Of a DNA stretch of 64,000 bases, positions 4,824 through 38,012 are shown piece after piece. The stretch is from Amphiura filiformis (taxonomy: Eukaryota), in the NCBI RefSeq assembly GCF_039555335.1, contig NC_092646.1:58138946-58202945 (forward strand), read 5' to 3'. The notes under the pieces were generated by a model. That model ran no database searches and had not been told where the DNA came from. It saw only the letters and a program-made list of their open reading frames with translations. The stretch's first letter is position 1, and every line of letters starts with the position of its first letter. The translations under genes were made by a program, and so were the position numbers.

Positions 4824-4974
4824 ATGGACATTTTCAACATGCGCAAGGCTGTACTGCTTTGCCTTGTGCTTATCTTGATCTGCGAGGTTAGCGGTCACAA
4901 CCCCAACGGCTGCGCATGCGGCAGCAGCAGCAGCAGTCAGGAAACCACGGTAACCGCCACTAGTGCTAGTAGTA
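4824..4974 (+). CDS. Candidate first coding exon encoding a signal peptide (MDIFNMRKAVLLCLVLILICEVSG) followed by a short Ser/Thr-rich stretch. It ends at a consensus donor, AGTA|GTAAGT, in phase 1.
   Basis: The hydrophobic core and small residues before HNP fit a cleavable signal peptide. GTAAGT sits at 4975-4980. Donor phase 1 matches the phase-1 acceptor of the SRCR exon at 6407, giving a joined codon A+TC (Ile). The ORF is shorter than 60 aa, so it is absent from the track. Confidence 0.35.
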
Positions 4975-5943
4975 GTAAGTAGCGCAGATTTCTTTTCAAA
5001 ATTGGGGGCGACGGTGGTGTAAAAACCACGAAGCAGTCTTTCGCTCTCAGAATAACTTGTGGTGGAATTATTAAAATCAATTTTGAATTCAACATTAGAA
5101 GAAAAACAAAACAAAAAGGCGATTCCTAACCACTGGACACGTGAAAAGAAGCCCTGAAATCTTAGATACATAATATATCGTAGCCGTGTGCGAAGAAGGT
5201 TGGAAATCAGAGCTATAGTGGAGTTAACTTAAAGCCATATTATAACATTTCCTGAGGAAGACGCCCTCACGGAATTTTTAAAATTCCTTTTTTGTCACGA
5301 TTAAATTGTACTTTATTAAACCAATATACCCTGCAAAAATGAAGACTCTAGGTGCTGTAGTTTTGTCAAAATCCGAGATTTTTAATAAAACGCCGGAACC
5401 GGCGCTTTATTATTACGATGGAATTATTAGTCGAACGCATACACGGTGTTCATAACACACAGTGCGTACACGGCGTGTGCGACGGTGATATACACAACAA
5501 AGGGTCGTACCACAACATGACCGAAGGAGTGGTACGTATTGGCGACATGTGCGCTGGTAGTAAATTCCAATTTTCTTTGCTTTGCCGTAGTTGTTCGGCT
5601 CAAAAATAAAAGGGGATATATCTGACAGTAAAAGCTAACATTTTATGGCAAAGAAATGCTAATCTATTTTGTTTGAAAATGTTATAATATGGCTTTAACT
5701 TCAACGGATTTAGATCCCCTGTGCCCAGAGCTCGGGTACCGCGGTTTTCGGATGGGAGCGATTCTCATTCTGAAATGAGTTGATATTGAAGTATACATTT
5801 CCAAAAGGGGCTTCTACAGCCCATGATGTGTCACGACTATGCATGCATGTATATCGAGGGTTGAGAGCCAGAAAAGAGTTAAGATATTACAGATATCAGG
5901 TCCAAAAAGACTTTAGCAAGTCTACACTGAGACCAGCATAGAC

Positions 5944-6355
5944 TAGTAGTAAAGTTAGCTCAATCGTTAAGGCGTTCGACTATCATAGTGCGAGAGGTTG
6001 CGGGTTCGAACCCTTGCGGTGCCTAGTATGCTCTCGTGGAAAAATTGAGTAAGCTTGAAATTCCCCTGGACAAGGAACTTACTGCTAATTTTTCTCGTTG
6101 TAACCCGTACGAAACACGGGGAGCTGATCCTGGTTGCGATGGTTATTTGTGGAATGTCTAGGGTGTGCGCTCTTGAAGCAGCAAAGTCTCTGATTTGTTG
6201 TTTAATGGTTTATGGAATGATGTGGGGCCGTATATGGTCAGCGACAACCTGTAAAGTGTGCTGAGGCTTGTGGATCAACGTCTAGGCGTTGTTGTGCCTG
6301 TGCGTAGCGCACTATAAATCACTGCGCTTTATTATTATTATTATTATTATTATTT
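5944..6355 (+). mobile_element. SINE-like element. It has a degenerate tRNA-derived head (5944-6030, with T-arm-like ggttgcgggttcgaaccc), the ~290-bp body shared with 3085-3356, and an (att)8 tail at 6331-6354.
   Basis: tRNA-like D- and T-arm motifs are present but no clean cloverleaf. The body matches copy 1. The microsatellite tail is typical of SINE 3' ends. Confidence 0.55.
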
Positions 6356-6406
6356 TCCACAAAAGATATCTTGCTCCTTACAAGTCTTATTTTGGACTTG
6401 TTTCAG

Positions 6407-6701
6407 TCCGCCTTTTTGGTCTTTCAAGTGGTACCAAATACGGCGAAGTGGAAGTATACTACAATGGAGCTTGGGGTGCAGTGTGTGCTGACAACTGGGA
6501 TAAAAACGATGCAACTGTAGCATGTCGTCAACTTGGATTCTTTCCAGCGCCATTTGTGAGTTCTTATGGACAAGTAACTGGACCATTATCGATGACCAAT
6601 GTAATGTGTACTGGTACAGAAAAAAGTTTAGATGAATGCAGTCATGAAGGTGAACCTCAAACCTGTGCGTCAGCACGCCATGCATATATAGATTGCAATT
6701 A
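6407..6701 (+). CDS. Single-exon SRCR (scavenger receptor cysteine-rich) domain. The peptide is (I/V)RLFGLSSGTKYGEVEVYYNGAWGAVCADNWDKNDATVACRQLGFFPAPFVSSYGQVTGPLSMTNVMCTGTEKSLDECSHEGEPQTCASARHAYIDCN.
   Basis: The acceptor is tttggacttgtttcag|TC at 6401-6406 and the donor is TTA|GTAAGT at 6702-6707. The peptide has the canonical SRCR pattern (VRL..G, VEV..NG.WG.VC.D.WD..DA.VVCRQLG, C.G.E.SL..C). Entry phase is 1 and exit phase is 2. Confidence 0.85.
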
Positions 6702-6714
6702 GTAAGTACTAAAT

Positions 6715-7032
6715 TCGACGTCGATGTGACGTAATAAATCGGATTAACTACCGTAACAATGGATGAATACAATTTTGAATAGATCGCTCTCCTTCACTAT
6801 CTATGCTCTGCACTACAAGCAGATTGCACTAATCACCTGTGTATGTCTGTAAACATAGATTGAATACAATACTAATCTTACTGGTGCGAGTGATCAGCCT
6901 TTCTTTGACATCTAGGCCTATGGTTCAATACATAGGTACCGCGTTAACGTTGTAGTGCTGAGCGTTCTATTCAAAAATTGTATTCATCCATTGCTGTGGT
7001 AGTTAATCCAATTATAACGTCACTTCGACGGC
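6715..7032. mobile_element. Fold-back MITE, family C. Its long TIRs are cgacgtcgatgtgacgtaataaatcggattaactaccgtaacaatggatgaatacaattttgaataga and the reverse complement. It sits 13 bp downstream of the SRCR exon donor.
   Basis: The near-perfect inverted arms of ~70 bp can be read directly. Five further copies are listed below. Confidence 0.75.
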
Positions 7033-7371
7033 GAATAACGAGTTACTCTAAGATGTACATTCACTCCGTAATTTGCATGGCAAAATGACTCCTCCGTATT
7101 CTCCTTCGCAGCCAGTTTGGTTCTACTCCCTCGGAATCAAATTGTTCGCGGAGGAGACTATCCTCCATTGAGTGATAAGCCTGTCACATGTTATGGGCAG
7201 TGAACTCTTGTTTTGGTCACTACTGAGTTGAGCTTTAAAAAAGGCATTTCTAGTACAATTATTGCTCTCCATACACAGATGAATGCAAATATAACGCAAA
7301 ATATTCCACCTTGCATTTTGTGTTATATAGGCCTACACATAATTTGTAGAGTATCATGAGAATGGGCTGAT

Positions 7372-7378
7372 GATTATG

Positions 7379-7459
<81 letters not shown>

Positions 7460-7492
7460 GTTATTATTATTATCATCATCATCATCATCATT
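7372..7492. repeat. Microsatellite (ATT)n of ~30 units, running into (ATC)n.
   Basis: Direct reading. Confidence 0.95.
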
Positions 7493-8490
7493 TACATTTT
7501 AGATGGTGAGTGACGTGACACGGTGGAAGCACGGACACCGCTGGAGAGACAACGCACTTGGCGTTTTATTATTAAGTCTTGAAGAAGTACAATATTATTA
7601 TTATAATTAATAGTCTTCTACACACACTGACGGTAAATATTACAACATCCTCATAATAGAGTTTTTCAGTTTAAAATTAGAAATGATGGCCGGAAGAAAA
7701 CCACTGGGAGAGAAAGCCAGAAAGGATTTCCAAAGATTACGAGATTGGAAAAGACTGAAAAACTGAAACTGCCATGTTCATGTCAATGATGTCATGTGAT
7801 TATCGCGAAAGACTCACTAGCGACTTTAACCATGCCGTGGACAATTAGAGCATGTTCATGATGTCAATTTCGGCGCTTTTTCAGGAATCGGGAGAGTTCA
7901 CATTAAGCGCTATATCAATTTGTTGTGACATTCGTTGTAGTCAGATGCACTATAATTGCAGATGACAATTTTCAGTCTATTTTTTCAGTCTCGTAATCTT
8001 TGTAAGACTCGTACCTTCTTTCCCTGTAGTTTTCTTTGGACCACCGCTTCCTTGTGACTTTCTGCCGGCAGCCTAATCTATATACATTTAACCCAAACCG
8101 AATAAACTCTTTGAATCCAATACCGAAGCAATCTTTCGACCAAAAGTACGAATTTTTGAACAAGTTCTGCCAACTTAAGCTCTTGCAACTGTCAGCTTTA
8201 TTTGTCTCGATATTGGGTACAGGACATCACTAGGTCATGCTCCCCTGCGACCCGCCTTATCAGGAAACCTCTATTTTGGTGATATTAGTATTGCGGACAG
8301 TGTGCATATTATGGGATGTAAATGGTGAATCTCAAAAATTAATGATATATTAATCCAAAGAAAAAATAGTAAAAATACTCTTTGTTTACCCAACTTATAT
8401 GTCAGTAGAAAACTGAATAATTACTCAACAATCCCATCTCATTTAAGCATTTAAATCCAAAGATGTAAGTCGTGTTCACACGGTCGGATA

Positions 8491-8524
8491 TAAGTCACTT
8501 ATTACCGGTAATAAGTGACTTATC
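8491..8524. repeat. 34-bp perfect palindrome, ataagtcacttattaccggtaataagtgacttat.
   Basis: Direct reading. It is followed at 8570-8655 by three 27-bp tandem units (caccac[c/t]agtgccga[t/c]a[a/t]catgctaca). Confidence 0.8.
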
Positions 8525-8940
8525 ATGCCCACTCAAAACATAACACAGAAATTTAAAAAAAATAGATGACTTGACCGATATCATGCTGCACACCACCAGT
8601 GCCGATAACATGCTACACACCACCACTGCCGACATCACACTGCACACCGCCAGTGAAAAAGTATTTTCGATAATCCTTTTCTTCTAGTCGACAAAAATGA
8701 TTTAGAATTGTACCATTTTTTGAGATACACCCCGGTGATGGGAAAAAAGGTTATATAATATCCGTATTATAATAACCATGTTAACCTTATAAAGATTAAA
8801 GATTCCGTTAAAACTATATGAATATGAAACCATTATGTGTTGAGAGTGTGTTTATTTAAATTGGATGCGGCTTAAAGGGAACTTAAAAAGGTTGGTTTTG
8901 TAGAGTCACGGGGGATGCACGTTAAACCCCGTATCCTGGA

Positions 8941-9198
8941 CTATTCGCCGTAGAAGCGATGATGTATCAGGATTAACTACCATAGCAATAGGTTCAAACA
9001 ATTTTTGAACATATCGCACTGCACTAGTACGTACATGCGGTACCTCTGCATTGGAACCATAGATGTCAAATAACAGGGATAAAGTACAAATGTGATGAGT
9101 GCAACCTGCTTGTAGTGCAGGGCGATATATTCAAAAATTGTATTTATCTATTGCTATGGTAGTTAATCCGATTATTACGTACCTTCAACGGTGAATAG
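8941..9198. mobile_element. Fold-back MITE, family C, copy 2.
   Basis: Arms ctattcgccgtagaagcgatgatgtatcaggattaactaccatagcaatagg and cctattgctatggtagttaatccgattattacgtaccttcaacggtgaatag. Confidence 0.75.
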
Positions 9199-9774
9199 GG
9201 GGTTAATCCAAATGATCGATGTCGATCATACATTTTCTCGTATTGATAACGCTTTCAATACATCAATGTTATTTTGACCCACAGATGCTGAGGGAAGAGC
9301 CAGTTACAAAACCAGTAATATTGCATTCTTTATTTTGATTTGTACCCTTAGTAAATTAAAGACCCGATGAAGCCAAGCAAATGTAAAGCTAGTTACAAAG
9401 CTTACCCGGTACCCCCTCCAACCCCACCCATGTAACGGAGCCATGCAGAAGTGGTCAAAACAACATTGATGTTTTTGTACGAGTTTTTGAGAAGCGTGAT
9501 AGCGATGTCTTTTAGGACATTCCCTCCCTCCGCAAGGCTTCGAGAAGTGTTATAGGGACCCTCCCTCAATGCATTTTCAAAACCCTCCTTCCCTCCGTAA
9601 TAGCGACGTACCATCGCAAGGCTTCGTCAACCTTTTAGTTTGTTCCCTTGGGTCATAAAAGCTGTAGAAATAAACATATCGGTGTTTCACGAGTAGTAGA
9701 CTTTAATCGAGTTATATAAATTATTCATGAGCTCCTCATGAATATTAATGAGGTGGATGTGGCTACACCGCTGC

Positions 9775-10473
9775 TTTGACCCCTATATGACCTTTGACCT
9801 ATATGACCCTATGTGACCCCACATCACACCCTTATGTGACCCTACATGACCTTTGGCCCCTACATGACCTTTAATCCGGATATGACCTTTGACCCTATAT
9901 AACCTCTTATACGGAAGTGATATTTGAAACCTATGTGACATTTAACCCATGTGACTTTTGACCCCTTTGTGACAGTGACACTATATGACCTCTGACCCAT
10001 ACATGACCTATGACCCAGAAGTGACTTTTTACTCCATACATGACCTTTGACCACTACGTGACCTTAGACACAGGAGTGACCTTTGAATCGGAAGTGATCT
10101 CTGACCCGGAAGTGACCTTTGACCCCTAAGTTACCTCTACATGGTCTTTGAACCCTATGTGACTCTACATGACCTTTCACCCCTATGTGACCTTTGATCC
10201 GCACGCGACCTTTATATCCTCTGACCTCTAACCTCTGAACCTCTAACCTCTGATCTTTGAAACCTTTTTGTGACCTTTGACCCTACGTGACTTTTGACCC
10301 ATATGTGACAATGACACTATAAGACCTCCGACCGCTGCATAACCTCTGACCCGGAAGTGACTTTAGACTCCCTAACCTTTGACCACTATGCCCCAGAAGT
10401 GACATTTTTACCAGGAAGTAATCTTTGACCTGGAAGTGACCTTTGACCCCTACGTAGCCTTTGACTCCTATTT
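9775..10473 (+). repeat. Minisatellite of ~35 degenerate 18-22-bp units built on TGACCTTTGACCC. Each unit is a DR1 arrangement of nuclear-receptor half sites (AGGTCA-n1-AGGTCA on the opposite strand).
   Basis: tgacctttgacc(c) or a one-mismatch variant recurs at 9791, 9884, 10037, 10114, 10160, 10272, 10434, 10441 and elsewhere. Confidence 0.85.
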
Positions 10474-10611
10474 GACATTGTAGAACGTTCGAGTGAATAA
10501 ATGTTGTGAGTTGCATTCGCCCCCAAACTTGCCCAAAACACCTGTTACACCCCGAAATAAAATAGCGATCAGAAAAGCGCCCACTATGCACGTGCAACTT
10601 CACTTCCTGGT

Positions 10612-10785
10612 TCACTTGAAGGTCAAAGGTCACATAGGGTCGAAGATCTCTTCCCGGTCAGAGGCCATAGGGGTCAATCATTTATTGGTCAAAGGTCACG
10701 TGGGGGTCACAGGTCATGTAAGGGTCACATATGGATCTAAGGTCAGGTAGGGGTCAAATGCTACTTCCGGGTCAAAGGTCACGCA
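10612..10785 (-). repeat. Shorter inverted arm of the same minisatellite (gggtcaaaggtca units). With 9775-10473 it forms a large fold-back structure; the flanks (cctcatgaatattaatgagg at 9735 and cctcataatattaattc at 10785) are also similar.
   Basis: ggtcaaaggtcac occurs six or more times in inverted orientation relative to the long arm. Confidence 0.8.
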
Positions 10786-11958: not shown

Positions 11959-12157
11959 CCGATAATGAGGGCCGATTGTTCGGTGAAATGCGACATGCCC
12001 GGGCGACAGGCGAGACTGCTACGCAATTTCCGCTTATTTTCACGGTCTATCGCGTAATCGCGAAAGCACGCAACGCTCTATCGCGTATACGCAAAGACAC
12101 GCAGCGCTGGCGTGATTGTTAGACACGGCACGATCGAACAATCGGCCCTCATGAATA
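11959..12157. mobile_element. Small MITE with 23-bp TIRs (cgataatgagggccgattgttcg / cgaacaatcggccctcatgaata).
   Basis: Direct reading. The interior is rich in cgcgtaatcgcg-type motifs. Confidence 0.6.
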
Positions 12158-12764: not shown

Positions 12765-14297
12765 CAGTCATGGACAAAAGTTTGGAATATTTTTATTTTT
12801 TTTATCAAATGCAGTTTTCAATCATTGTTCTGGAGTAGTGCTCAGTTGAATTAATTTGAAAGTTATGAATGTCATTTGATGTTTACATCACACAGTTTGT
12901 CAATTAAACAAAGAATTTCCTGAGGAAGCGCATTACAATGGAAGGATCACACAATCGCAACACTTTTTGGCGGTCTCTTTGTATCACAAAATGAAATTAA
13001 AGACAATATAAAACTTTATTGTTTAAACAAAAACTTCCACTGTCTCTGTAATTTGTTCCGGTAAGTCTCTTGCTTGAGAAAACACATCTCAATATTTGGT
13101 GTGTCCACCCCTTGTCAGCTCAAGATCATTTAGCCAACGTGACATTCCCTCGTCCAGGTTTGCCAAGGTCCCTTGTGGAATATCTCGCCAGCAAGCAATA
13201 AAGGCGTGTCTACGTTCCTGCAGGGTGATTGGTTGGTTGTCCATGTTACCTATCCTGCGGGATACTTCTGCCCATAAGTTCTCTATTGGACTCATATCCG
13301 GGCTCAAAGCCGAGCAGTCCAGATGTTCTACATTCTCATTTTCAAGGAATTCCCTCACGCGTAGGGTTCTGTGCGCCATGGTGTTGGATCACGAAATTGT
13401 TCCCGAAGTCTCTTCTTGCAAACGGAAGCATAACTGTATCAAGAACATAGAGGTATTGGTTCTGGTTCACGTGTCCTTCTAGCATGTTGAGTTGTGATTT
13501 CGACCTACTCTGAAATGTTCCCCATACTGTGACTCCACCACCATCTCCCTGGACTCTAGGAAGGATACAATCCGCAAGCAGGGCTTGACCAACCTGTCTT
13601 CGGACCTTGAATCGGTCATCTTGTCTGTAAAGGAGGAACCGGGCCTCTTCACTGAAGATCACATTACGTCAGTGGCCTACTGTCAAATCCCTATGTCTCT
13701 GTGACCAAAGCAAGCGCGCATGCCGATGTCTTTGCAGAAGTATCGGCTTTCTTATTGGTCGTTTTGCGCGAAAACCTGCACTAACCAGTCTATTGTTCAC
13801 AAGTTTCCTGGTAACAGGAGCTTTTATGGACCTCAGCCATTCTGTTCGTAGCCGACTTGCCGACTCCGTGCGGCCATTGTGGCAAAGTCTCAGGAGAGAT
13901 CGGTCTTCCCTGGCGGTTGTCTTTCGGGGCCGACCTGACCTTGGTCTAGGTGTAGTAGTTCCGGTCTCGTGACGTCTCTTCAAAATTTTAGAGACTGCAT
14001 CTTATGTAATTCCTAAAGCGACACCTATATCCTTCTGTTTGTAGCCGCGATTACGTAAGTCGGTGACTTTGGCGCATAAATAATTATGTGCTCGACTCGT
14101 ACCTATGATCAGAAATATCGTATACAACAGACAGATGCAACAAAATAAAGCTGCACTAGGTATTGTGTGATATGGAATGATACCTTAGCAGACACCCGTG
14201 ATCCATTTTGCATGTCTTATGGGTCATTGATGGTAAGAAATCTGCACTTAAAAACAGGGTTATGCAAAAAAATATTCCAAGCTTTTGTCCATGACTG
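12765..14297 (-). mobile_element. Tc1/mariner-family (Tc1-like) DNA transposon, 1533 bp. It has 25-bp TIRs (cagtcatggacaaaagtttggaata / tattccaagcttttgtccatgactg) and is flanked by TA on both sides.
   Basis: TIRs at 12765-12789 and 14273-14297. TA dinucleotides at 12763-64 and 14298-99. Transposase-homologous ORF fragments lie internally on the minus strand. Confidence 0.85.
13089..13983 (-). pseudogene. Tc1-like transposase remnant. The N-terminal HTH region (RSGRPRKTTAREDR...), the DDE catalytic region (...VWGTFQ...FVIQHHGAQNP...) and the C-terminus fall in three different frames, so the gene is disrupted by frameshifts.
   Basis: ORF-track pieces 13669-13983, 13342-13662 and 13089-13379 each match successive parts of the Tc1 / Sleeping Beauty-type transposase pattern. 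Confidence 0.8.
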
Positions 14298-17100: not shown

Positions 17101-17529
17101 GTGGTGAAAAAATGTTTTGCAAGCCCTGTGTTTAGTCTCCTCCGCAGCCAGTTTGGTTACGCACCCTTTGTGTAGAGGGAGCGGAACCTGGCTGCTGTGG
17201 AGACAAACTGCAAGGAAATACATTTGAACTTGTGGCATTATAGCGGCGACCATATTTGCATATGGTCATACTGAACATGTCGCTTTATGTTATGTCAAGT
17301 GAATGATAAAAGAAAATATTGTCGAACGCGCTCATAAATGCAAACATGATGGATATATGCAGGTACTCTGCATTTTGCTTCGTTGTTGCAACTCTATTGT
17401 TCAACTCGTGCGCTGGTGATGGCCCGTACCCGCACCTGGGATTGGGATTGGGATCGTTATCGAGGTAAGATTAAGGTGTCGTTCAACCACCTTTGAACAG
17501 TTTTTTTTTGTGGGGCCTGAGCCTGAGAG

Positions 17530-20195: not shown

Positions 20196-21120
20196 CCCAT
20201 AGTATGGGTTCAAGTGGAACAAAAAATAGTGTATGTCCATTGCTAGCTATGGTAATTAATCATGTTAGTGTTTACATCACTACTTCGGTGAAGACAAGAG
20301 AAGTGTGCCTTCTCTACCAACGCCTGTGATATAACAGGTGCAAGCGAAACAAAATTGAATGACCAGAATAGTTTCCTTTGTCAGATGAATTGATTGAAGT
20401 TTTTGAAGACACTCTATTCTTGATGGGACAATAGATTCAAATATGGAATAATTATTATTCGTCATCTTTTTTTTTTTATTGAAAAAACTGCAATTGTGGC
20501 AACAGAACAATATTTATTTTGATTTCATTTCAAGTAGAAACAAAATCGTGCTTAAGCCAAAAACGCACCCTACCTCAAGAATTGGGATGGCACAAAGGTG
20601 CAACATAGGTTTTTATTGCAAAGACGAGGACAGACAAGTGGTTACAACACATCTGTCTAACCGTGGGTTTCGCTATTATTTAGAATAAATGCTTTTACTA
20701 GTTTCTATAAAACCACAAAATTACTAAAAAAACTATAAAAAAACTAAAAAAAAAAAAAAAAAAAAAAAACGCACCTAAAATTTAAAGTAGAAAGGTAGAT
20801 TTGAAGAAAGATAAAAAGAACATGTAAAAAAGTTAAAATTAAACGAGAATGAAAAAACGGAACCGGTGACCGGACCATGCTCTCTTCAGCATGTCTTCAG
20901 TTCCAAAGTCTGACGCTCTATCAATTGAGCTATACGATCCTGATATACGAAACAGTCGTTATTATGTCAATACAATTGATTGGTGTTACAACATACTTAG
21001 ATGGAATGCATAGCCACCCAGTGCCAGTATATATTTGCTCAAACTCCAAATACAACAAGCAACCAATTTTATTGAGGGCGTTTCTTAGGTATATCCTTGT
21101 AGACGGGGTTTTACGGTATT

Positions 21121-28346: not shown

Positions 28347-28454
28347 ATGAATGTGAATCCAACCCTTGTCAAAATGGTGGTTTTTGTATAGATGGTGTCA
28401 GCCAGTATAACTGTATCTGCCGAAGTGGATTTTCTGGAACAAGATGCATGACAA
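28347..28454 (+). CDS. Calcium-binding EGF-like domain exon of 108 bp in phase 1-1, encoding (D)[35 protein letters not shown].
   Basis: Acceptor tttaaatttttcag|AT and donor ACAA|GTAAGT. The peptide has the cbEGF signature D-x-D/N-E-C, six Cys and the Asn/Tyr hydroxylation context. The symmetric phase 1 is classical for EGF modules. Confidence 0.85.
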
Positions 28455-29404: not shown

Positions 29405-29410
29405 CTCATA

Positions 29411-29764
29411 TCGTTATGAATACGGCAGACGGCCGAATCCAGATTCGACTTTTGGTAAATTCATTTTACACATGCATTACATTTGAATTCGAGAACAAGG
29501 GATCAATGCTATATCTATAGAGGGCAGCATATCGATTTTTTAACGGTTGCCGTCGGTGACCGTACTGTGATGCACCGTCAACTAACCTTGTATGCCGCCC
29601 TCTTTTGATTACTTATCATCTGGTCTCCGTTAAAAAAATGATATGCTGCCCTCTATCATGTACAGCATGGATCCCTTGTTCTCTAATTCAAATGTAATGC
29701 ATTCGTAAAATAAATTTACCAAAAGACGAATCCGGATTCGGCCGTCTGCCATATTCATAACGAA
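29411..29764. mobile_element. Fold-back element, ~350 bp, with ~95-bp inverted arms (cgttatgaatacggcagacggccgaatccagattcgac...gagaacaagggatc) and an inner palindrome (agagggcagcatatcgattttttaa...).
   Basis: Direct reading. The left arm at 29411-29505 pairs with the right arm at 29668-29764. Confidence 0.75.
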
Positions 29765-30578: not shown

Positions 30579-31485
30579 TGGCGTAGAATTCTTTTTGATA
30601 TTTTTTTTCACTATAGTGAATCCAGCACTTTTTGGCGACAGAAGTTGATGGTAAAAATACGCGACATTTTGCCATTTTGAAGCTAAACTGGTAAAATATG
30701 GTGCAAAATGGAACCAATTCACTCGAAGCGCGCAAAAAATGGGCACTTTTTAGGCCGAAACGGTCAAATATGAGATTAATTTGGTCAGAAACCCACATAC
30801 AGACGTCAACATGGGGGGGTTGTATGGACCATCCCCTATCAAAATATTGGGGGATTTATCCCTCTCCCACGGGATCTACGCTTATAGAATCAATTGACCA
30901 GATCACTTCTTACGACGGGCTGCCATGAACTCTTCTCAATTATCTGTTGTACAGGGTGTCCCTAAAAGAACTGTATCGTTGGAAACGTAATTGTTTGGGT
31001 ATTTTAATGCCACAAATAAATGTAATTAAATAACTGGTGTGGTTGAGGAATAAATCAGCTATCACATACTTTTTAAATTTTGACAATTGACTGCACCGTT
31101 CTTGAAAGGTAATAATTTTACTAAACTCCCTCATTTTCAAACCTCTCCACGGATTCAAAATATCAATCGATGATCTGTATTCGGAGTGCTAATCACTGTG
31201 CATCATCAGCGCATGAGGCATCGGTTGTCATGAGATATTTGACTCCGTAGAACTGATTGAAAATCAGGTAGTTTCGTAAATTACTTTATTTCAAAAACGG
31301 AGCGGTTAATTGTCAAGTTCCAAAGTATGTGATAGCGGATATATTCCTCAACCACATCGGTTATTTATATATGTTTGGTTTATGCGTTAAAATACTCAAA
31401 AAATTCGGTTCCCGACTATACAGTTCTTTCAGTGACACCCTGTATGTGTGAATGTGACCTTTATTGAGCACAGGACTATACGCTG

Positions 31486-32107
31486 GCGAAGTTACGTAAT
31501 AAATCGGATTAACCATAGTAGATGAAAATTTTTGAGCATATAGCGCTGCACTACAAGCAGGTTACACTAATCACCTGTGTATCTGCAATCAATACTGGTC
31601 TTTTCAAAGATACTAATCTTACAGGTGCAAGTGATCAGCATGATATGGTTCAATGCAGAGGTACCGCGTGAACGTATCAGTGCATTGCGGTATAGAGGGT
31701 ATTCATTACTACGTCATTGATCTGATTGCTCATGCATAAAATTCCTCCACATAGGTTGTTTAGCTTAATCGGGAGAGTGACCTCTTGAAATGATGATCAC
31801 AGTTATCTTTGAGTTATTACAGTGAGGCCCACGTACAATGTTCAACACAAAGTGAACAATGCTATAACTTGGAGGACAAACAAACCAACACCGCCAAATT
31901 CAACTTACATGTGTACAACGTGGGAAGCTATGGGGGAATTGAACACTTGTTGTCTGATCATGCATGTGTTTATGGTTCGGGTAGCGGTTACTTAGCAACT
32001 CTCGTTCCGCTTGGGTTTATTGCATACACTCTATATTCAAATATTGTTTTCACCTATTGCTATGGTAGTGAATCCGATTCGATTATTACGTAACTTAGCC
32101 AGCGTAT
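31486..32107. mobile_element. Family-C MITE copy whose arms (31486-31700 and 32035-32107) are separated by ~330 bp of unrelated sequence, suggesting a split by insertion or a recombinant copy.
   Basis: The left arm is tatacgctggcgaagttacgtaataaatcggattaacc. The right arm is ttttcacctattgctatggtagtgaatccgattcgattattacgtaacttagccagcgtat. Confidence 0.5.
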
Positions 32108-32503
32108 GAGGTACTCGTGTGGCTTGCTCGTTTGACCCGACTAAACTCTCTAAATCACAACTGTCCCTATAATTTGGTTCACATCAAGTTTGGTAGTGAC
32201 GTTACACATACGTCACTACGAAACTTGAGATGAACCAAATTATACATACTTAATGCGATTCTGAGGGAGTATGAACTGGGTGTGTTTGTACTCAAATATT
32301 GAGACATAGGCCTATAAAGCAGACACACAAGAAGAATGCTATGAGTTCTATAAAGGAGATCGTAAGGCTTCATATAGATTAAAGTACCACAACCCACGGG
32401 ATCTAACGTTGCCCACCAATGTGCTTTTCAGAGATTTCAGAGGCTCTGGACGGTTAGAGATAGAAGAGATGTGATCATGTATATGACAGCTAAATATCCT
32501 TTA

Positions 32504-32632
32504 ATTTTTCAGATATAGATGAATGTGCTTCTGGTCCTTGTCTAAATGGTGGTAGATGTAGAGATGGTGTCAACCACTATAGCTGTATCTGTCCAAGTGG
32601 ATTTGCTGGAACAAGATGCTCTGTGGAACACG
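32504..32632 (+). CDS. Second calcium-binding EGF-like domain exon of 129 bp in phase 1-1, encoding (D)[39 protein letters not shown].
   Basis: Acceptor cctttaatttttcag|AT and donor ACACG|GTAATG. The exon is ~80% identical in nucleotide sequence to the 28347 exon. The 30 bp upstream of both acceptors (tatatga[g/c]agctaaatatccttta) is conserved, indicating tandem duplication of the exon unit. Confidence 0.85.
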
Positions 32633-32757
32633 GTAATGAGACAAGCGCATTATTGAAGACGAGAAAATAATAAATAATAATAATTTTTAAAAAAACACAC
32701 GGAAAAATAGCCAAAATAGCCTCATATACCAAATGGAACCGATTTACGCTCATTATA

Positions 32758-32891
<134 letters not shown>

Positions 32892-33233
32892 CACTTTAAA
32901 AAAATCTATATGAATGGAAACTTAATAATATGCTATAAAGTTGAATAACATGTGGAACAAGAATCGCAAAACCTATATAAATATAAATAGAAACAAATTC
33001 AAAGTATAGACCTCTGGCAAGGCAACCGTTACTTAAAGTTTCACGGAATACCCTCACTTACGATCATTAAACCGATCATCAGGCGGATAATTTGTCATGA
33101 TTTCAAATTTACAGAAATGTTTATACAAGTATATACATTCTGTGGTGTCGAAAACATGACAAACCATGCCAACCAGAACAGTCTCTACTCCAAAAGTAGT
33201 CGAGAGTGCTCAACCACTAAAAATAGTGGGGGC

Positions 33234-33352
33234 GTATTATAACAAGTTTACTTTACAAGTGACTAACTTTGGAATTTAGAGTGCTCTTTGGAATTTAGAG
33301 AGCACTCTAAATTCCAAAGTTAGTCACTTGTAAAGTAAACTTGTTATAAATA
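33234..33352. repeat. 119-bp near-perfect hairpin (ttataacaagtttactttacaagtgactaactttggaatttagagtgctc...).
   Basis: Direct reading. Confidence 0.6.
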
Positions 33353-33903
33353 GAAATAGAAATAGAAATTATGAGCTTCTTCGACTCATTTTCTATACAA
33401 GGTCAACGTAGAGGAGAGCTGCCAACATTGGAATATGTAAATGCAGAAGATTTCTGCTAAGTGTAAAAAAAAGCTTAGGATGTGACGCTCTCGCGCCAAG
33501 GGCAACGGCCCTTGCGTGGGATCAGCACCACAAAAGCTCCTGGATGTTAGCTTTTTGAGACCTTAAAAATGCCTTGTCAAGGCTACTCAACCTTTTTAAA
33601 CAGGATATTGGGCGTATAATTGATTTTGTTTTGATTTTTAGCCAGATGGCTGTAAATGCAGAAGATTTAGCCAGACGGCTGCAAATGCAGAAGATTTAAT
33701 ATGTTTTGCAGAAGACAGAAGATTGTCAGCAAAAGTGGAAGACTTCTGCAGAAGTCAAGAAGGGTTGGCAGCTCTGAATAAGAAGTACATAGCTGGTTTT
33801 TAGTTAAATTGCTAAAACTGGACAAAATGTGTCTCCTGCCATCGTGTTAATGTACTATTCAAGTACTTCCGCACCCCATCCCTGGAAATGGCGGGTACTG
33901 CCG

Positions 33904-34057
33904 CAGTGGCGTAGCGTCATAGGGCACGGGGATCACGTGCCCCCAATCAATTGCAAAATTTAGAAAATCCCATAGGAAAATTGCCGAATACGGCTTGCCC
34001 CCCCATCAGACCCGGTGTCCACAATCATGATCGGTGCCCGCCCCCCGCTACGCCACT
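33904..34057. mobile_element. MITE, family A, short copy of 154 bp, with TIRs cagtggcgtagcg / cgctacgccactgg.
   Basis: The interior cccataggaaaattgccgaatacggcttgccccccc is shared with 40845-40890. Confidence 0.7.
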
Positions 34058-34242
34058 GGGTACTGGTGGTGACTGTAATCTGAGATTACATATAGATTAA
34101 CCGGTGACTGCACTCCAGGGGTAGGGCGTACTTTAGCAACAAGTCAAGAGCGGCGCTACTATATCAAGAGCGGTACTACGAGCTACTATACGTTTGGCAA
34201 GCATATGGAAAGATATAGCTACAAAACGATTCTCTTATAAAC

Positions 34243-34426
34243 GTTCTGGTGCACCAGAACGAAATTCAAATTTCACGATATCTTTGCTAAACGAATTAAT
34301 CTGCAAGAAATATTTTGTACATAAACATTATGTAGCCAGAGGTTGCCAGTGATATAAAAATCTCAACTTTTTTTGAGAAAAGTGGGGAGATGAGGCTGTG
34401 GATCACGAAATGCCCCTTTAAATGAA
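34243..34426. mobile_element. MITE, family F, partial copy (right half).
   Basis: About 88% identity to 30395-30578. Confidence 0.6.
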
Positions 34427-34794
34427 AGAGCACACTTATATTGTCCATATACTACATTCATTTCAATGAACAATGGCCAATTCCCTTTAATTGCCAATCT
34501 TGTGCGAAATGTTAGTAGTTTCGCCTGTTTTATCATGCGGTTGTAAATTCAATGAACAATGACTTTGCTTAAAGAGCGCTTACAAATTCATATGTTTCTT
34601 TGGTAGTTGAGAATTAGTCGGTATACCATGCATTTCTCCTGTTGAAGAAGACCAGGAACCATTAAGCACGGTTTACGTGCTTCTCCATTAGTTAAGCTGT
34701 AATTTGTTCTTACCCATTAATATCTGAAATATTTTAATGACTCACTACTGTATAGACATGTAGGCTATGAACGTTGACGACCATGATCGCAGTA

Positions 34795-35275
34795 TGTTTG
34801 TAAACATAAAGTCTGCATAAAAAGTAACTCAGCTGTTATATACACGCCTATAGATTCAGAACTAATAATTGTTTTCACAATGTTTCAACATAAAAAGAAG
34901 GGTGATTTATTTACGCGCATTTTGATACCCCATTTGTCCAATTTTGTTCAATATTGACAATACAGCAGTGTTTTGAAAGAAAAATACCCCAATTTAAAAG
35001 TTGCAGTTATTTGTATTGATTCGAAGATAATGGCGGGCTTTACGTGTTTACAGTGCTGGCATTATAACCACTGATTGCTATAAACTGCAACTTTTAAACT
35101 CGGGTATTACTACTGTGTTGTTAATATTGAACGACATTTGACAAATGGGGTATCAAAATGCGTGTAAATAAATCATCCTTCTCTCTATGCAGAAATATTG
35201 TGAAAACAATTATTTGTTCTGAATCTATAGGCGTATTTATAACAGCTGAGTTACTTTTTGTGCAGACTTTAGATT
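34795..35275. mobile_element. Fold-back element, ~480 bp.
   Basis: The left arm 34795-34990 (gtttgtaaacataaagtctgcataaaaagtaactcagctgttatatacacgcctatagattcag...) pairs with the right arm 35085-35275. Confidence 0.6.
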
Positions 35276-35419
35276 GTCAACATACAGCATTTAGTGTAAT
35301 AAATAACAGGTGTTGGCCAGACTGTGGTCCTTTTCTCCATGTCTCATTTTGGGCCGGTGCAAGTAAATTAGTCCACTCGTGGCCTGAGTACTTATGTGCA
35401 TGACTTTATATTATTGCAG

Positions 35420-35671
35420 ATCTTGAAATCTGGAAATGTGATGATATATTCAGGACGTCTTCAACAGAATATGTAAGAGTATTTTTCCTTCGCGGACGCC
35501 AAGCACAAAATAACGTAGGTGCTAGTGGGGGATATCACAGGGAATTCAATCCACCATCGGGCAGCATCTTCAAAGCTGGGACAATAACATCCGTCCGATT
35601 TACAGTTACCGATGAAAACACAGTCAATATTTCGTGTACATTCAAAGTGCAAGTCCAACACGACCAAAGAG
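35420..35671 (+). CDS. Candidate internal coding exon of 252 bp in phase 1-1, with an open frame of 84 codons: (D)LEIWKCDDIFRTSSTEYVRVFFLRGRQAQNNVGASGGYHREFNPPSGSIFKAGTITSVRFTVTDENTVNISCTFKVQVQHDQR.
   Basis: Acceptor tttatattattgcag|AT and donor AGAG|GTAGTC. There is no stop in 84 codons of AT-rich sequence and no ATG, so the frame is absent from the ORF track. Phase 1 at both ends is compatible with the upstream EGF exon and the downstream 36966 exon. An alternative short exon would end at the GTAAGA at 35473. Confidence 0.5.
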
Positions 35672-36965
35672 GTAGTCTACTTTATATCTTATAATACAAA
35701 ATGCACACATCAAAGAAAGAGTAAATGTAAAGCATAATTATATTGCAGTGGGAGAGGTGTAAAATTGTACTGCATTGAAAACCCCCCATAAAAATCGTAC
35801 ATTATGGCTGCAAGGCTGACAGAGTACTATTTTCTAAATTCAAAACTTTTAAGTTTAAAACCTATCATGTTATATACCATTATTTAATCATTCGTATCTA
35901 AAGTATTTCAGAGTTTATTATAGTATGCAAACGGTATGCTTATTTACAGCAGGTCTCATTTTCTTAGCATATATAAAGCACCCGGTTAAAGTATTTACTA
36001 CTATTTCATTAGGACTGAGGAAGAAAGTGGACTTTTAGGTTCAAAAGATTTTAAAAAAAAACCAACACGATACGTGATAAAACATGATACTAAATTCGTA
36101 ACTTCATAATATGGATCTAAGGATAGAAAATGAGTGCTTCTGAGTCGAGAAGACCAAAAGTCGGCATTTTCCTTTTTAACGTATGCTTGCATGTTCGTTT
36201 TTTGCTTGATACCATCTTATATTCCCTCCAATAATTCGACAATACCTTTCTCAAATAGCTAGATCAAATTGTCCAAGTGCAATGTTGGTAATTCTAATCA
36301 GAGATTAATACGGTATCATGCAATTGAATACATGAATACAAAAGCCACCTAAGTCCATGCGAAGTTATTTTGAGAGAAAAACCCGTGTATCATTTTAATT
36401 CCTTCAGTTAGATTTACCTGGTCAATATGGTAAGTTTTACATGCAAATGAGTGGATTAACCTGTATTAGGTATGACGATTAGCATTTCAGGGACTTCGTG
36501 GGGTTCATTTTAAATTTTGGACTTTTTTGGTTTTTTGAATCATATACAAAGACAACAATGTTAGAATGAGATTACCACTAGTAAGATAATACAAAATAAA
36601 GCACACAGGTATGTATAATGTAGATAAGCATTCTGCCATGTAATATAAACCACACACTTTCCTTTATTAAACCCATTTTTTGTTCAAAAGTCATTCTCTA
36701 GCAATGAATGTGTTACAAGTGGACTTTTATACATACTGGATTTCAATCAATGTGTTACAAGACTCAAATCATGGAATTGGGTGATTCTTTCATACATGCT
36801 ATTTTTCACATGCCCAATAGACACAGAGAATGAATTTGAGTTGTTCTTTCATGCATATGACAGGCCTATGTATAGCAACAATTTCCCATGCTTAACTCAA
36901 TTTGGCCAAAGTATGGACTTAGGTGGCTTTTGTATTCATATATTCAATTGTTACATTTTTTACAG

Positions 36966-37323
36966 CATGTCACGTTGGACCCGAAATACCACCGAAAGAC
37001 GAATTTCCGTGGGCAGGCCTTACGCCACCTTACGGCTATAAGGGGATTCGAGGTGGATACGTTTACATTTTAGCAGCAGATTATTATACAATATATTGCA
37101 ATGGATCTGTATCTAGTTGGGACTATTTTGCAGAGACGTCCGCAGCTTTCCGAGCTATAGTATTTAGACCTGGTGGTAACCCGAAACAGTGGACCATTGT
37201 CGGTATCAATGACATTCCTCCTCATACAGCCAAATACCAGTATAAGTCTACATACGTTGTTCCGTACGGTGATCGCATATCGGTTGAAGCGGGTGACGTT
37301 ATCGGTGTCGCAGTCGGTGAAGC
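36966..37323 (+). CDS. 5' part of the terminal coding exon, entry phase 1: (A)CHVGPEIPPKDEFPWAGLTPPYGYKGIRGGYVYILAADYYTIYCNGSVSSWDYFAETSAAFRAIVFRPGGNPKQWTIVGINDIPPHTAKYQYKSTYVVPYGDRISVEAGDVIGVAVGEA. In the present sequence it ends after 3 extra codons at a TGA (37331-37333) supplied by the inserted MITE.
   Basis: Acceptor ttacattttttacag|CA at 36951-36965. The frame is open for 120 codons. The first-codon junction with exon 35420-35671 gives G+CA (Ala). The domain is not recognised and appears beta-rich. Confidence 0.6.
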
Positions 37324-37699
37324 CAGAGGATGATTTAAGCACTTCCCAGCAAGTCTTGCGGTTAGCACAGCTGTGTGAGTGAACATGACACCACTGCCCG
37401 CCCACTGCACACACACGTGCATGGTTAAATTTGAATTTGGATAGATATATTTACAATAAAAACACCTTCAAAAAGTTGGTCGATTTCACATTTTATGTTA
37501 TCTACAGAAGGTGTGAATTATCCTTCATGCATACATCACTTTACATCTGAAATCGACCAAGTAATAATGACACACGGGCAATTCTAAAACAACATCTTTT
37601 GCACAGAGTTCAATGGGATTTGAAAAGTAAAGTGGCAGTTGAAACTCTAGTGATAACACTTTTACAGTGCATGATGGGGCTTCCTTAAATCATCCTCTG
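37324..37699. mobile_element. MITE, family G, 376 bp, with 16-bp TIRs (cagaggatgatttaag / cttaaatcatcctctg) and a perfect 9-bp target-site duplication CGGTGAAGC (37315-37323 and 37700-37708). It is inserted inside the terminal coding exon.
   Basis: TIRs and TSD read directly. The second copy at 39519-39903 has its own perfect 9-bp TSD, ATATCCTCC. A 9-bp TSD suggests a Mutator/MULE- or Merlin-like origin. Confidence 0.85.
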
Positions 37700-37708
37700 C
37701 GGTGAAGC

Positions 37709-37934
37709 AGACAACCCGAAAATACGGAACACGTATATTACTGAAATGCACGTTGAAAGCGCTCCGTTGGCTGACCCTATGACCCTGACGCCAGGTGACA
37801 CCGTTACTACTAATCATGATTCGAATTATGTCTACGATGCAATATCAATTTCAGCCATAATTTCAAACACAGAAGCAGGTAATATAAATGGCAAGTCTAT
37901 TCTTCTAAACTGTGTACACGGTTGTTTGATGTGA
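37709..37934 (+). CDS. 3' part of the terminal exon, contiguous with 36966-37323 once the MITE and one TSD copy (385 bp) are removed: ...DNPKIRNTYITEMHVESAPLADPMTLTPGDTVTTNHDSNYVYDAISISAIISNTEAGNINGKSILLNCVHGCLM*.
   Basis: After removing 37324-37708 the reading frame continues without a stop into ORF-track entry 37746-37934, in the same frame (385 mod 3 = 1 is exactly compensated). The stop is at 37932-37934 and an AATAAA lies 73 bp downstream. Confidence 0.45.
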
Positions 37935-38006
37935 TCATTTATTAATTTTTCTAACGAAACATTATTATGTTTAATTCTAGACCTAAATACGAACAGCTAT
38001 CACACT

Positions 38007-38012
38007 AATAAA
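38007..38012 (+). other. Candidate polyadenylation signal AATAAA, 73 bp downstream of the reconstructed stop codon.
   Basis: Read directly. The surroundings are AT-rich, so specificity is low. Confidence 0.3.

What the first reader, a model, noticed from the sequence alone, without database searches (positions are those of the whole stretch)
4824..38012. Phase-coherent mosaic gene: signal peptide, SRCR, two cbEGF modules and an unclassified C-terminal region spread over ~33 kb of TE-filled introns
Six plus-strand exon candidates were found independently: 4824-4974, 6407-6701, 28347-28454, 32504-32632, 35420-35671 and 36966-37934. They obey one consistent splicing logic. Every module exon enters in phase 1, and each junction I could test yields a sensible codon (A|TC, G|AT, G|CA). 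Secreted or membrane SRCR-plus-EGF mosaic proteins are typical of invertebrate-deuterostome innate-immune and adhesion repertoires. The last ~280 residues (exons 35420 and 36966, starting DLEIWKCDDIF... and CHVGPEIPPKDEFPWAGL... through ...GDVIGVAVGE...) carry no motif I can assign to a known domain. That tail is the most likely place for something undescribed. One inconsistency remains: the SRCR exon leaves in phase 2 while the first EGF exon enters in phase 1. So at least one exon in 6.7-28.3 kb is missing from my model, or there are two genes.
Basis: partly seen in the sequence, partly recalled or inferred. Interest (0 to 1): 0.7.

Follow-up and report, generated by a model that had tools for sequence, protein, structure and literature searches.

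The report
Two brittle-star genes, one transposon-truncated
The supposed 33-kb mosaic gene is most likely two neighbouring brittle-star genes for extracellular-type proteins, and a small transposon in the last exon of the second one cuts short a widespread protein domain that has no Pfam model.

Summary
The window is from Amphiura filiformis (brittle star). All six exon candidates are real, but they most likely belong to two genes.

Gene A (4824-4974 + 6407-6702) encodes a signal peptide plus one SRCR domain, 148 aa. A 174-aa paralogue ends at the same position. A polyA signal lies 31 nt downstream.

Gene B is the RefSeq 297-aa 'uncharacterized protein'. Five exons (17419-17464, 28347-28454, 32513-32632, 35420-35671, 36966-37333) reproduce it exactly. 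It reads EGF-EGF-HYR-tail.

The "unclassified" 280 residues split into two parts:
- A HYR domain, which fills exon 35420-35671.
- A roughly 146-aa domain with no Pfam model. It has over 100 representative relatives in echinoderms, molluscs and an annelid. Its predicted fold is a jelly-roll beta-sandwich, nearest to carbohydrate-binding modules and phage tail or decoration proteins.

A 376-bp MITE (37324-37699, 16-nt terminal inverted repeats, perfect 9-bp target duplication) sits inside that domain and supplies the annotated stop codon. Removing it restores the remaining 37% of the domain, up to the stop at 37932-37934.

The annotated N-terminus of gene B has no signal peptide. A signal-like ORF lies out of frame in the same exon.

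This is mostly ordinary biology. The points of interest are an annotation correction and an unnamed domain family.

The parts
4824..4974 (+). Gene A, coding exon 1. It holds the start codon, a signal peptide (MDIFNMRKAVLLCLVLILICEVSG) and a Ser/Thr-rich linker, and it leaves in phase 1.
   Evidence: Translation. AG before the exon and GTAAGT after it. The N-terminus aligns with paralogue P0002, MDVFKMRKAVLLC.... The signal-peptide call is by inspection; no predictor was available.
6407..6702 (+). Gene A, last coding exon. It encodes one six-cysteine SRCR domain and ends at the stop codon TAG (6700-6702), which overlaps an apparent GTAAGT donor.
   Evidence: Pfam SRCR E 5.7e-24, 84.8 bits. The ORF ends at 6702. 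Paralogue P0002 ends at the homologous residue...FIDCS.
6733..6738 (+). AATAAA polyadenylation signal 31 nt after the gene A stop codon.
   Evidence: Pattern search. Its use as a polyA signal is inferred.
17346..17415 (+). Signal-peptide-like ORF (MMDICRYSAFCFVVATLLFNSCA) in the first exon of gene B. It is one base out of frame with the annotated start. It would be in phase only if the weak donor CTG|GTGATG at 17415/17416 were used.
   Evidence: Sequence; frames. Inference only; there are no transcript data.
17419..17464 (+). Gene B, annotated first coding exon (MARTRTWDWDWDRYR, no signal peptide). The donor is GAG|GTAAGA and the exon leaves in phase 1.
   Evidence: Located from RefSeq protein P0001.
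28347..28454 (+). Gene B exon 2: EGF domain 1, entering and leaving in phase 1.
   Evidence: Pfam EGF E 2.8e-10. 83% DNA identity to exon 3 over 103 nt (D18).
32513..32632 (+). Gene B exon 3: EGF domain 2, with a complete N-I-D-E-C ... C-x-D-x-x-x-x-Y-x-C calcium-binding-type motif. It enters and leaves in phase 1.
   Evidence: Pfam EGF E 4.4e-11; EGF_CA 23 bits, below the cut-off of 27. Borders.
35420..35671 (+). Gene B exon 4: HYR domain, entering and leaving in phase 1.
   Evidence: Pfam HYR 25.6 bits against a cut-off of 21.7. The same HYR-then-domain order occurs in hyalin-like P0099 (BLASTP E 5e-13 across the junction).
36966..37323 (+). Gene B exon 5, part before the MITE. It encodes the N-terminal 63% of the unnamed roughly 146-aa beta-sandwich domain (family profile positions 3-93).
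   Evidence: Local family HMM, 117 bits. 114 relatives found.
37315..37323 (+). Left copy of the 9-bp target-site duplication, CGGTGAAGC.
37324..37699 (+). 376-bp MITE with 16-nt perfect terminal inverted repeats (CAGAGGATGATTTAAG). It supplies codons R-G and the annotated stop TGA (37331-37333), and it also carries an AATAAA at 37455.
37700..37708 (+). Right copy of the target-site duplication, CGGTGAAGC.
37709..37934 (+). Displaced remainder of the last coding exon: 74 codons plus the TGA stop at 37932-37934. It encodes family profile positions 93-145.
   Evidence: In-frame ORF after excision. HMM 24.9 bits, E 8.9e-10 for this piece alone. Relatives align through query residues 170-179.
38007..38012 (+). 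AATAAA 73 nt after the ancestral stop codon; the likely original polyA signal.
   Evidence: Its function is inferred.
39519..39903 (-). Second copy of the same MITE family in inverted orientation (385 bp, about 89% identical), with its own perfect 9-bp duplication ATATCCTCC.

Best explanation
The interval most likely holds two independent plus-strand genes of the brittle star Amphiura filiformis.

**Gene A** (4824-4974 + 6407-6702) encodes a 148-aa protein: signal peptide, Ser/Thr-rich linker and one SRCR domain. It has the same layout as a 174-aa paralogue on the same chromosome. It is absent from the public protein collection.

**Gene B** (17.4-38.0 kb) is built from phase-1 module exons: EGF, EGF (a recent exon duplicate), HYR, and a C-terminal domain of about 146 aa that has no Pfam model. 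That last domain is a shuffled extracellular module. It occurs alone in small secreted-type proteins. It also occurs next to HYR arrays, SRCR-trypsin, C-type lectin, F5/8-C, sushi, cadherin and adhesion-GPCR parts, in echinoderms, molluscs and an annelid. Its predicted fold is a jelly-roll beta-sandwich closest to carbohydrate-binding modules. I therefore infer that it is a ligand-binding (probably glycan-binding) module presented on an EGF-HYR stalk.

**The MITE.** In this assembly a 376-bp MITE has inserted into the last coding exon at domain position 93 of 146. The first stop codon in frame lies in its terminal repeat. The annotated protein therefore ends ...GEARG and lacks the last four predicted beta-strands. 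This allele most likely yields a product whose terminal domain cannot fold.

**What is shown and what is inferred.** Shown: the exon structure, the domain calls, the stop codon, the MITE anatomy, and homology of the displaced ORF. Inferred: secretion, the binding function, loss of function, and the true 5' end of gene B.
For: **Organism and gene B model**
- Exact RefSeq match. The five exons reproduce the protein with AG/GT borders.

**Two genes**
- TAG stop at 6700-6702.
- Paralogue P0002 is 60% identical over 99% of gene A and ends at the same residue.
- AATAAA at 6733.
- No bridging acceptor at the 17.4-kb exon.

**Domains**
- Pfam SRCR, EGF x2 and HYR all pass their cut-offs.

**MITE**
- Two copies with identical 16-nt inverted termini; 4 pattern matches against 0.06 expected.
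- Perfect 9-bp duplications at both copies.
- Excision restores the reading frame.

**Displaced ORF is real coding sequence**
- An HMM built from relatives covers residues 31-172 of the restored sequence end to end (profile 3-145 of 146, 153 bits).
- The piece after the MITE alone scores E 8.9e-10 at profile positions 93-145.
- Only 1.5% of window positions have 78 stop-free codons.

**Domain family**
- 114 representatives at E<=1e-3, of which 26 at E<=1e-10.
- No Pfam model matches in 10 homologues, in 51 aligned members, or in the precomputed Pfam column for 83 of 85 profile hits; the other 2 list only EGF-type models.
- Taxa and partner domains.

**Fold**
- AF2 model: pLDDT 79.5, pTM 0.79.

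**Genome background**
- A recent DNA-transposon burst and 3.2% heterozygosity are reported for this genome (PMC11310086).
Against: - No transcript data could be consulted. The stop-overlapping GTAAGT at 6702 is a perfect donor consensus and could be used in an alternative isoform.
- Gene A is not annotated in RefSeq and may be unexpressed.
- The annotated gene B protein lacks a signal peptide although all its domains are extracellular types. The 5' end is therefore wrong, or a weak donor is used, or the gene is decaying.
- Structural similarity is at fold level only: sequence identity is at most 10%, and Foldseek finds nothing at E<=1e-3. Glycan binding is a guess from the fold class.
- The MITE may be present on only one haplotype, or it could be an assembly choice.
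- InterPro, CDD and HHpred could not be consulted, so 'unnamed' means not in Pfam and not named by any source seen here.
Confidence: 0.78

Rival explanations
1. This is the first reader's model: one long mosaic gene, with signal peptide and SRCR spliced through a missing exon in 6.7-28.3 kb to the EGF-EGF-HYR-tail exons.
For: - All exons are on the same strand and in the same order.
- GTAAGT immediately follows 6701.
- The annotated gene B product has no signal peptide of its own, whereas exon 4824-4974 has a good one.
- SRCR is combined with the tail domain in another Amphiura protein, P0035.
Against: - Reading through gives TAG at 6700-6702.
- Paralogue P0002 stops at the same place.
- A polyA signal lies 31 nt downstream.
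- The phases are incompatible (2 against 1), and no acceptor in the 17.4-kb exon fits.
- tblastn with 147 family proteins finds no extra module exon between the two genes.
- RefSeq models gene B separately.
Confidence: 0.08
2. Gene B is a decaying gene or pseudogene, not a functional gene carrying one damaged allele. Its signal peptide has fallen out of frame and its terminal domain is broken by the MITE, so no working protein is made.
For: - The signal-like ORF at 17346 is one base out of frame with the annotated ATG. With the strong donor it terminates as a 40-codon upstream ORF.
- The MITE removes 37% of the domain.
- There are many paralogues in the genome, so redundancy is likely.
Against: - All four module exons and the displaced 74 codons remain open with intact splice sites.
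- The target duplication is perfect, which suggests a recent event.
- An alternative donor at 17415/6 would restore signal peptide plus EGF in frame.
- The assembly is nanopore-based, so a one-base error is possible.
Confidence: 0.25
3. The MITE-derived ending is the functional form. The insertion was co-opted to give a shorter C-terminus and an earlier polyA site (AATAAA at 37455 inside the MITE).
For: - RefSeq's model ends in the MITE.
- The MITE carries an AATAAA 122 nt after the new stop.
Against: - The truncation removes four predicted beta-strands and the near-invariant last-strand alanine of a jelly-roll fold.
- Every full-length relative keeps this part.
- The displaced ORF is still intact, which is unexpected if it had long been dispensable.
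Confidence: 0.07

Closest known systems
Hyalin-like and other HYR-repeat extracellular proteins of echinoderms (for example XP_072017507.1, hyalin-like, Amphiura filiformis)
   Same: A HYR domain is followed, a few residues after its last cysteine, by the same C-terminal domain of about 146 aa. BLASTP across the junction gives E 5e-13.
   Different: Gene B has one divergent HYR instead of ten, and two EGF modules in front. Its terminal domain is interrupted by a MITE.
XP_072044362.1, an uncharacterized A. filiformis protein (EGF-EGF-same terminal domain, 249 aa)
   Same: It has the same EGF-EGF-domain architecture and the same domain family.
   Different: It has no HYR exon. Identity over the domain is only about 35-39%. 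Its domain is uninterrupted.
Small secreted single-SRCR proteins ('neurotrypsin-like' P0002, A. filiformis, 174 aa)
   Same: Gene A shares the signal peptide, low-complexity linker, single six-cysteine SRCR domain and the stop right after the domain. Identity is 60% overall and 74% in the SRCR domain.
   Different: Gene A has a shorter linker and is not in the public protein collection. Despite the name, neither protein has a protease domain.
Galactose-binding-domain-like / carbohydrate-binding-module jelly rolls (CBM of SGNH acetylxylan esterases 7tog/7toj/7tok, CBM6, CBM32, F-type lectin) and phage tail-spike or decoration domains (9d93, 9jwb)
   Different: There is no detectable sequence relationship: identity is at most 10%, and there are no PDB hits by sequence or profile. 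The animal extracellular context is different. No binding data exist.
MITEs (non-autonomous DNA transposons) inserted in coding exons
   Same: The element has short size, terminal inverted repeats, a target-site duplication, no coding capacity and multiple copies. A recent DNA-transposon burst is reported for this genome.
   Different: The superfamily is not assigned. From my own knowledge, a 9-bp duplication is typical of Mutator-like or Merlin-type elements; this was not tested. No autonomous partner was identified.

Membership tests
SRCR domain (Pfam PF00530) | Profile match above the curated gathering score | tested here: met
   84.8 bits against a cut-off of 26.1, covering profile positions 6-100 of 100.
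SRCR domain (Pfam PF00530) | Conserved cysteine framework (six cysteines in group A-type domains) | tested here: met
   Six cysteines counted in the translated exon. Disulfide pairing is not testable here.
EGF-like domain (Pfam PF00008) | Profile match above the gathering score, with six cysteines | tested here: met
   40.7 and 43.3 bits against a cut-off of 21.5. Each exon has six cysteines.
Calcium-binding EGF (Pfam PF07645, EGF_CA) | Profile match above the gathering score | tested here: not met
   16.7 and 23.0 bits against a cut-off of 27.
Calcium-binding EGF (Pfam PF07645, EGF_CA) | Consensus D/N-x-D/N-E/Q-C at the start and C-x-D/N-x-x-x-x-F/Y-x-C inside | tested here: inconclusive
   EGF2 has N-I-D-E-C and [10 protein letters not shown], which is complete. 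EGF1 has only ...R-D-E-C plus [10 protein letters not shown]. The first position of the EGF1 motif depends on the unresolved upstream exon.
HYR domain (Pfam PF02494) | Profile match above the gathering score | tested here: met
   25.6 bits against a cut-off of 21.7 for the exon alone, and 22.1 bits in the full protein. Only profile positions 46-81 of 81 align; the N-terminal half is divergent.
Unnamed ~146-aa extracellular domain family (defined here hits) | End-to-end match to a profile built from relatives | tested here: met
   After MITE excision: 153 bits, profile 3-145 of 146. The annotated protein covers only positions 3-93.
Unnamed ~146-aa extracellular domain family (defined here hits) | Near-invariant residues (C-x-G, W, R, G-x-N-x-I, V-P, I-x-V-x-x-G-D-x-x-G, and Ala in the last strand) | tested here: met
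   All are present in the restored sequence: G47, W52, R68, G80, N82, I84, V99, P100, I105, V107, G110, D111, G114, A169. A169 lies beyond the MITE.
Unnamed ~146-aa extracellular domain family (defined here hits) | Already described in a curated domain database | tested here: not met
   No Pfam model matches in the query, 10 homologues, 51 aligned members or 83 of 85 profile hits (2 list only EGF-type models). No source gives a domain-derived name. InterPro, CDD and HHpred are not available here.
Carbohydrate-binding module / galactose-binding-like jelly roll | Shared fold | tested here: met
Carbohydrate-binding module / galactose-binding-like jelly roll | Detectable sequence homology to a CBM or lectin family | tested here: not met
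   No PDB sequence or profile hits. Foldseek finds nothing at E<=1e-3. No Pfam CBM or lectin hits.
Carbohydrate-binding module / galactose-binding-like jelly roll | Carbohydrate binding | not testable with these tools
   This needs a glycan array or a co-crystal.
MITE (non-autonomous class II transposon) | Terminal inverted repeats | tested here: met
   16 nt perfect, at both ends of both copies. Four matches against 0.06 expected.
MITE (non-autonomous class II transposon) | Target-site duplication flanking each copy | tested here: met
   CGGTGAAGC on both sides of copy 1 and ATATCCTCC on both sides of copy 2, each 9 of 9.
MITE (non-autonomous class II transposon) | Small size, no transposase ORF, several copies | tested here: met
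   376 and 385 bp, two copies at 89% identity within 2.6 kb. The genome-wide copy number was not tested.
MITE (non-autonomous class II transposon) | Assignment to a transposase superfamily | not tested
   No repeat library is available. The 9-bp duplication only narrows the options.

The most novel reading that the evidence does not exclude
The last exon encodes a member of a so far undescribed extracellular domain family. The family has about 146 aa and a jelly-roll fold, is lectin- or CBM-like, and is present in echinoderms, molluscs and annelids. It would act as a glycan- or matrix-binding module. It has been shuffled as a phase-1 exon onto hyalins, SRCR-proteases, C-type lectins, cadherins and adhesion GPCRs, and expanded into many small secreted paralogues in the brittle star.
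Probability: 0.4. Interest if true: 0.5.

Novelty: new member of a known kind. Interest (0 to 1): 0.3.

Why it matters
- **Annotation corrections.** One unannotated small SRCR gene should be added. One RefSeq protein has a C-terminus (…GEARG) that is a transposon artefact, and an N-terminus that is doubtful.
- **A recent exon disruption.** This is a clean example of a DNA transposon truncating a coding exon, in a genome known for a recent DNA-transposon burst. It would be useful as a polymorphism marker.
- **A candidate domain family.** The broader value is the terminal domain. It is a large family with no Pfam model, found in marine-invertebrate extracellular proteins, with a lectin-like predicted fold. 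It is a candidate for curation and for binding studies in adhesion or innate immunity.
- None of this overturns current understanding.

Tried and rejected
- **Genomic context look-ups.** Searches for P0001 and P0002 returned nothing, so the paralogue's locus could not be compared.
- **AlphaFold-database fold search.** It was unavailable.
- **Sequence and fold searches on the terminal domain.** Foldseek against PDB gave no hit at E<=1e-3. Sequence and profile searches of PDB gave nothing usable. Pfam gave nothing on the restored domain or on 51 family members, apart from sub-threshold DUF7323 in 4 of 51 (best E 0.0023). A literature search for DUF7323 found nothing.
- **A downstream inverted paralogue.** I suspected one because two ORFs shared 'CWEVLKSSS'. 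That match turned out to be the second MITE copy.
- **A bridging exon.** I looked for an acceptor that would make the 17.4-kb exon bridge SRCR to EGF. There is none in frame.
- **Extra module exons.** tblastn of 147 family proteins against the window found only the known exons.
- **Other ORFs.** Ten long ORFs elsewhere in the window gave one Pfam hit, a Tc3-type transposase HTH.
- **RNA genes.** ARAGORN found no tRNA. Rfam found one marginal tRNA-like hit.

Full report
**Source and observation**

A search with the C-terminal 206 residues returned one protein at 100% identity and coverage. It is a 297-aa 'uncharacterized protein' of the brittle star Amphiura filiformis, on a 60-Mb chromosome. 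The window is therefore echinoderm nuclear DNA with 38% G+C.

Pfam gives these results:
- SRCR at 6407-6701: E 5.7e-24.
- EGF at 28347-28454: E 2.8e-10.
- EGF in the 32.5-kb exon: E 4.4e-11.
- HYR in exon 35420-35671: 25.6 bits against a cut-off of 21.7.
- Nothing for the last exon.
- EGF_CA stays below its gathering score for both EGF exons.

Only EGF2 has the complete calcium-binding motif.

**Gene B model**

The RefSeq protein starts MARTRTWDWDWDRYR, which maps to 17419-17464. Joining 17419-17464, 28347-28454, 32513-32632, 35420-35671 and 36966-37333 reproduces the protein exactly, with AG/GT at every border.

- The true acceptor of EGF exon 2 is at 32512/32513, not 32504.
- The three internal module exons each enter and leave in phase 1, and the last exon enters in phase 1. 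This is the classic pattern of shuffled extracellular modules.
- The two EGF exons are 83% identical in DNA over 103 nt (D18). They are 71% identical in protein. This points to a recent exon duplication.

**Why two genes**

This has a simple cause. The two leftover bases TA, plus the G of the apparent donor, form the stop codon TAG at 6700-6702, and TAA follows.

- A search with signal peptide plus SRCR found no identical protein. It did find a 174-aa A. filiformis paralogue on the same chromosome. That paralogue is 60% identical over 99% of the query. It has the same signal peptide, linker and SRCR layout, and it ends at the homologous residue...FIDCS.
- An AATAAA lies 31 nt after the stop.
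- The exact 148-aa product is not in the 15-billion-protein collection, so gene A is unannotated.
- In the 17.4-kb exon, no AG acceptor lies in a position and frame that would take a phase-2 entry to the phase-1 exit.
- tblastn with 147 related proteins finds no further module exon anywhere in the window.

I therefore favour two genes at about 0.85. A rare read-through-splice isoform cannot be excluded without transcripts, because GTAAGT follows position 6701.

**The 'unclassified' tail**

Its first 84 residues are the HYR domain. The last exon is more interesting.

A self-comparison showed that 37324-37699 is repeated, inverted, at 39519-39903 with 89% identity.
- Each copy begins and ends with the same 16-nt inverted repeat, CAGAGGATGATTTAAG. 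This gives four matches against 0.06 expected.
- Each copy is flanked by a perfect 9-bp direct duplication: CGGTGAAGC for the first and ATATCCTCC for the second.

These are two insertions of one MITE family. The first lies inside the coding exon. The annotated stop TGA (37331-37333) sits within its terminal repeat, so the annotated C-terminal residues R-G and the stop are transposon sequence.

Deleting the MITE and one duplication copy leaves an open frame. It runs a further 74 codons to a TGA at 37932-37934, followed 73 nt later by AATAAA at 38007.

**Is the displaced ORF real?**

I searched the restored 194-aa segment against 1.84 billion representative proteins.
- It found 114 relatives at E<=1e-3, of which 26 were at E<=1e-10.
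- Many align through query residues 170-179, well past the break at residue 119/120.

I then built a profile from those relatives only.
- It matches the restored sequence end to end: profile positions 3-145 of 146, 153 bits.
- The annotated part alone covers positions 3-93.
- The piece after the MITE alone covers positions 93-145, at E 8.9e-10.
- A stop-free run of 78 codons occurs at only 1.5% of window positions.

The MITE therefore interrupts a conserved domain and removes its last 37%. The intact displaced ORF and the perfect duplication suggest a recent insertion. The published genome paper reports a recent burst of DNA transposons and 3.2% heterozygosity (PMC11310086). The insertion may therefore be polymorphic.

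**What the domain is**

None of ten homologues has a Pfam model over this region. They do show the partner domains:
- ten HYR repeats (hyalin-like);
- SRCR plus trypsin;
- C-type lectin plus PAN;
- F5/8 type C;
- EGF-EGF;
- astacin-ApeC-CUB-kringle-sushi-C-lectin followed by three copies of the domain;
- sushi;
- proteins named cadherin-like and adhesion-GPCR-like by their sources.

Named members come from the following species:
- Amphiura, with many paralogues on several chromosomes;
- the crinoid Anneissia;
- the molluscs Crassostrea, Elysia and Babylonia;
- the annelid Owenia.

Further searches did not name it either.
- A scan of 51 aligned members gave no consistent Pfam family.
- A profile search of 5.8 billion proteins gave 85 hits. 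83 have no precomputed Pfam domain and the other 2 list only EGF-type models. All that carry a name are 'uncharacterized'.
- No PDB chain matches by sequence or profile.

Foldseek has no hit at E<=1e-3. Its best hit is again an acetylxylan esterase CBM.

I conclude that the fold belongs to the jelly-roll, galactose-binding-like class. From that and from the extracellular partner domains, I infer a ligand-binding, probably glycan-binding, role. This is inference, not a tested function. The truncated product lacks four predicted strands and the near-invariant alanine of the last strand, so it should not fold.

**The 5' end of gene B is unresolved**

The annotated N-terminus has no signal peptide, which is odd for an EGF-HYR protein.

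In the same exon, an ATG at 17346 opens MMDICRYSAFCFVVATLLFNSCAG, which looks like a signal peptide. It is one base out of frame with the annotated ATG. With the strong donor at 17464 it terminates as a 40-codon ORF. If the weak donor CTG|GTGATG at 17415/6 were used, the signal peptide would join EGF1 in frame (…[12 protein letters not shown]…).

Three options remain:
- an alternative donor;
- a one-base assembly error;
- real decay of the gene.

**Verdict**

- The single-gene interpretation is not supported.
- The 'undescribed tail' is one HYR domain plus a member of a large family with no Pfam model and no source name. In this assembly a MITE breaks that member.
- In kind this is ordinary: shuffled extracellular modules, a transposon in an exon, and annotation errors.
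- The domain family has modest curation interest.

Noticed in passing
window 1-1435: A tandem satellite of units about 100-109 bp long, with at least 13 copies at 60-100% identity to one another, runs off the left end of the window (D1/D4/D6).
   Followed up: no
window 42400-62800: A dispersed repeat family of about 110-150 nt has 11-12 copies in both orientations across the gene-poor right third of the window. It is probably a SINE or MITE family. Several long ORFs there (42306-42650, 55760-56128) are just translations of it.
   Followed up: partly
window 13096-13983 (-): A remnant of a Tc1/mariner-type transposase lies between the two genes. It matches Pfam HTH_Tnp_Tc3_2 at E 1.3e-10, and the adjacent ORF has a DDE-like sequence.
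   Followed up: partly
window 39519-39903 (-): A second copy of the exon-disrupting MITE lies 1.8 kb downstream in inverted orientation, with its own perfect 9-bp duplication. Together the two copies look like a 2.6-kb inverted-repeat structure, but they are independent insertions.
   Followed up: yes
window 17346-17468 (+): A 40-codon ORF resembling a signal peptide overlaps the annotated start codon of gene B in another frame. It could be an upstream ORF, the true start used with another donor, or the trace of a frameshift.
   Followed up: partly
window 32640-32894 and 7370-7500: There are two long trinucleotide microsatellites. (AGT)n starts within 10 nt of the EGF2 exon donor and gives a poly-Tyr ORF on the minus strand. 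(ATT)n lies 0.7 kb after gene A.
   Followed up: no
window 20867-20939 (-): A marginal tRNA-like Rfam hit (29.5 bits against a cut-off of 29) that ARAGORN does not call. It lies in the first intron of gene B, among copies of an 88-nt repeat (9088, 19762, 20085, 21148). It may be a tRNA-derived SINE.
   Followed up: no
window 34798-35280; 29411-29763; 30950-31444: Close inverted-repeat pairs (arms of 100-170 nt, 80-91% complementary, 139-235 nt apart) lie in gene B introns. One is only 140 nt upstream of the HYR exon. They are probably further MITEs (I2/I5/I11).
   Followed up: no
window 47001-47606: A local tandem duplication of about 390 bp at 96-100% identity lies next to two unassigned minus-strand ORFs (47694-48101, 135 aa; 48762-49331, 189 aa) that have no Pfam match.
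   Followed up: no
window 9940-10480: An 18-bp tandem repeat array (…GTGACCTTTGACCC…) lies in the intergenic region and gives rise to a spurious 116-aa ORF (D11/D20).
   Followed up: no
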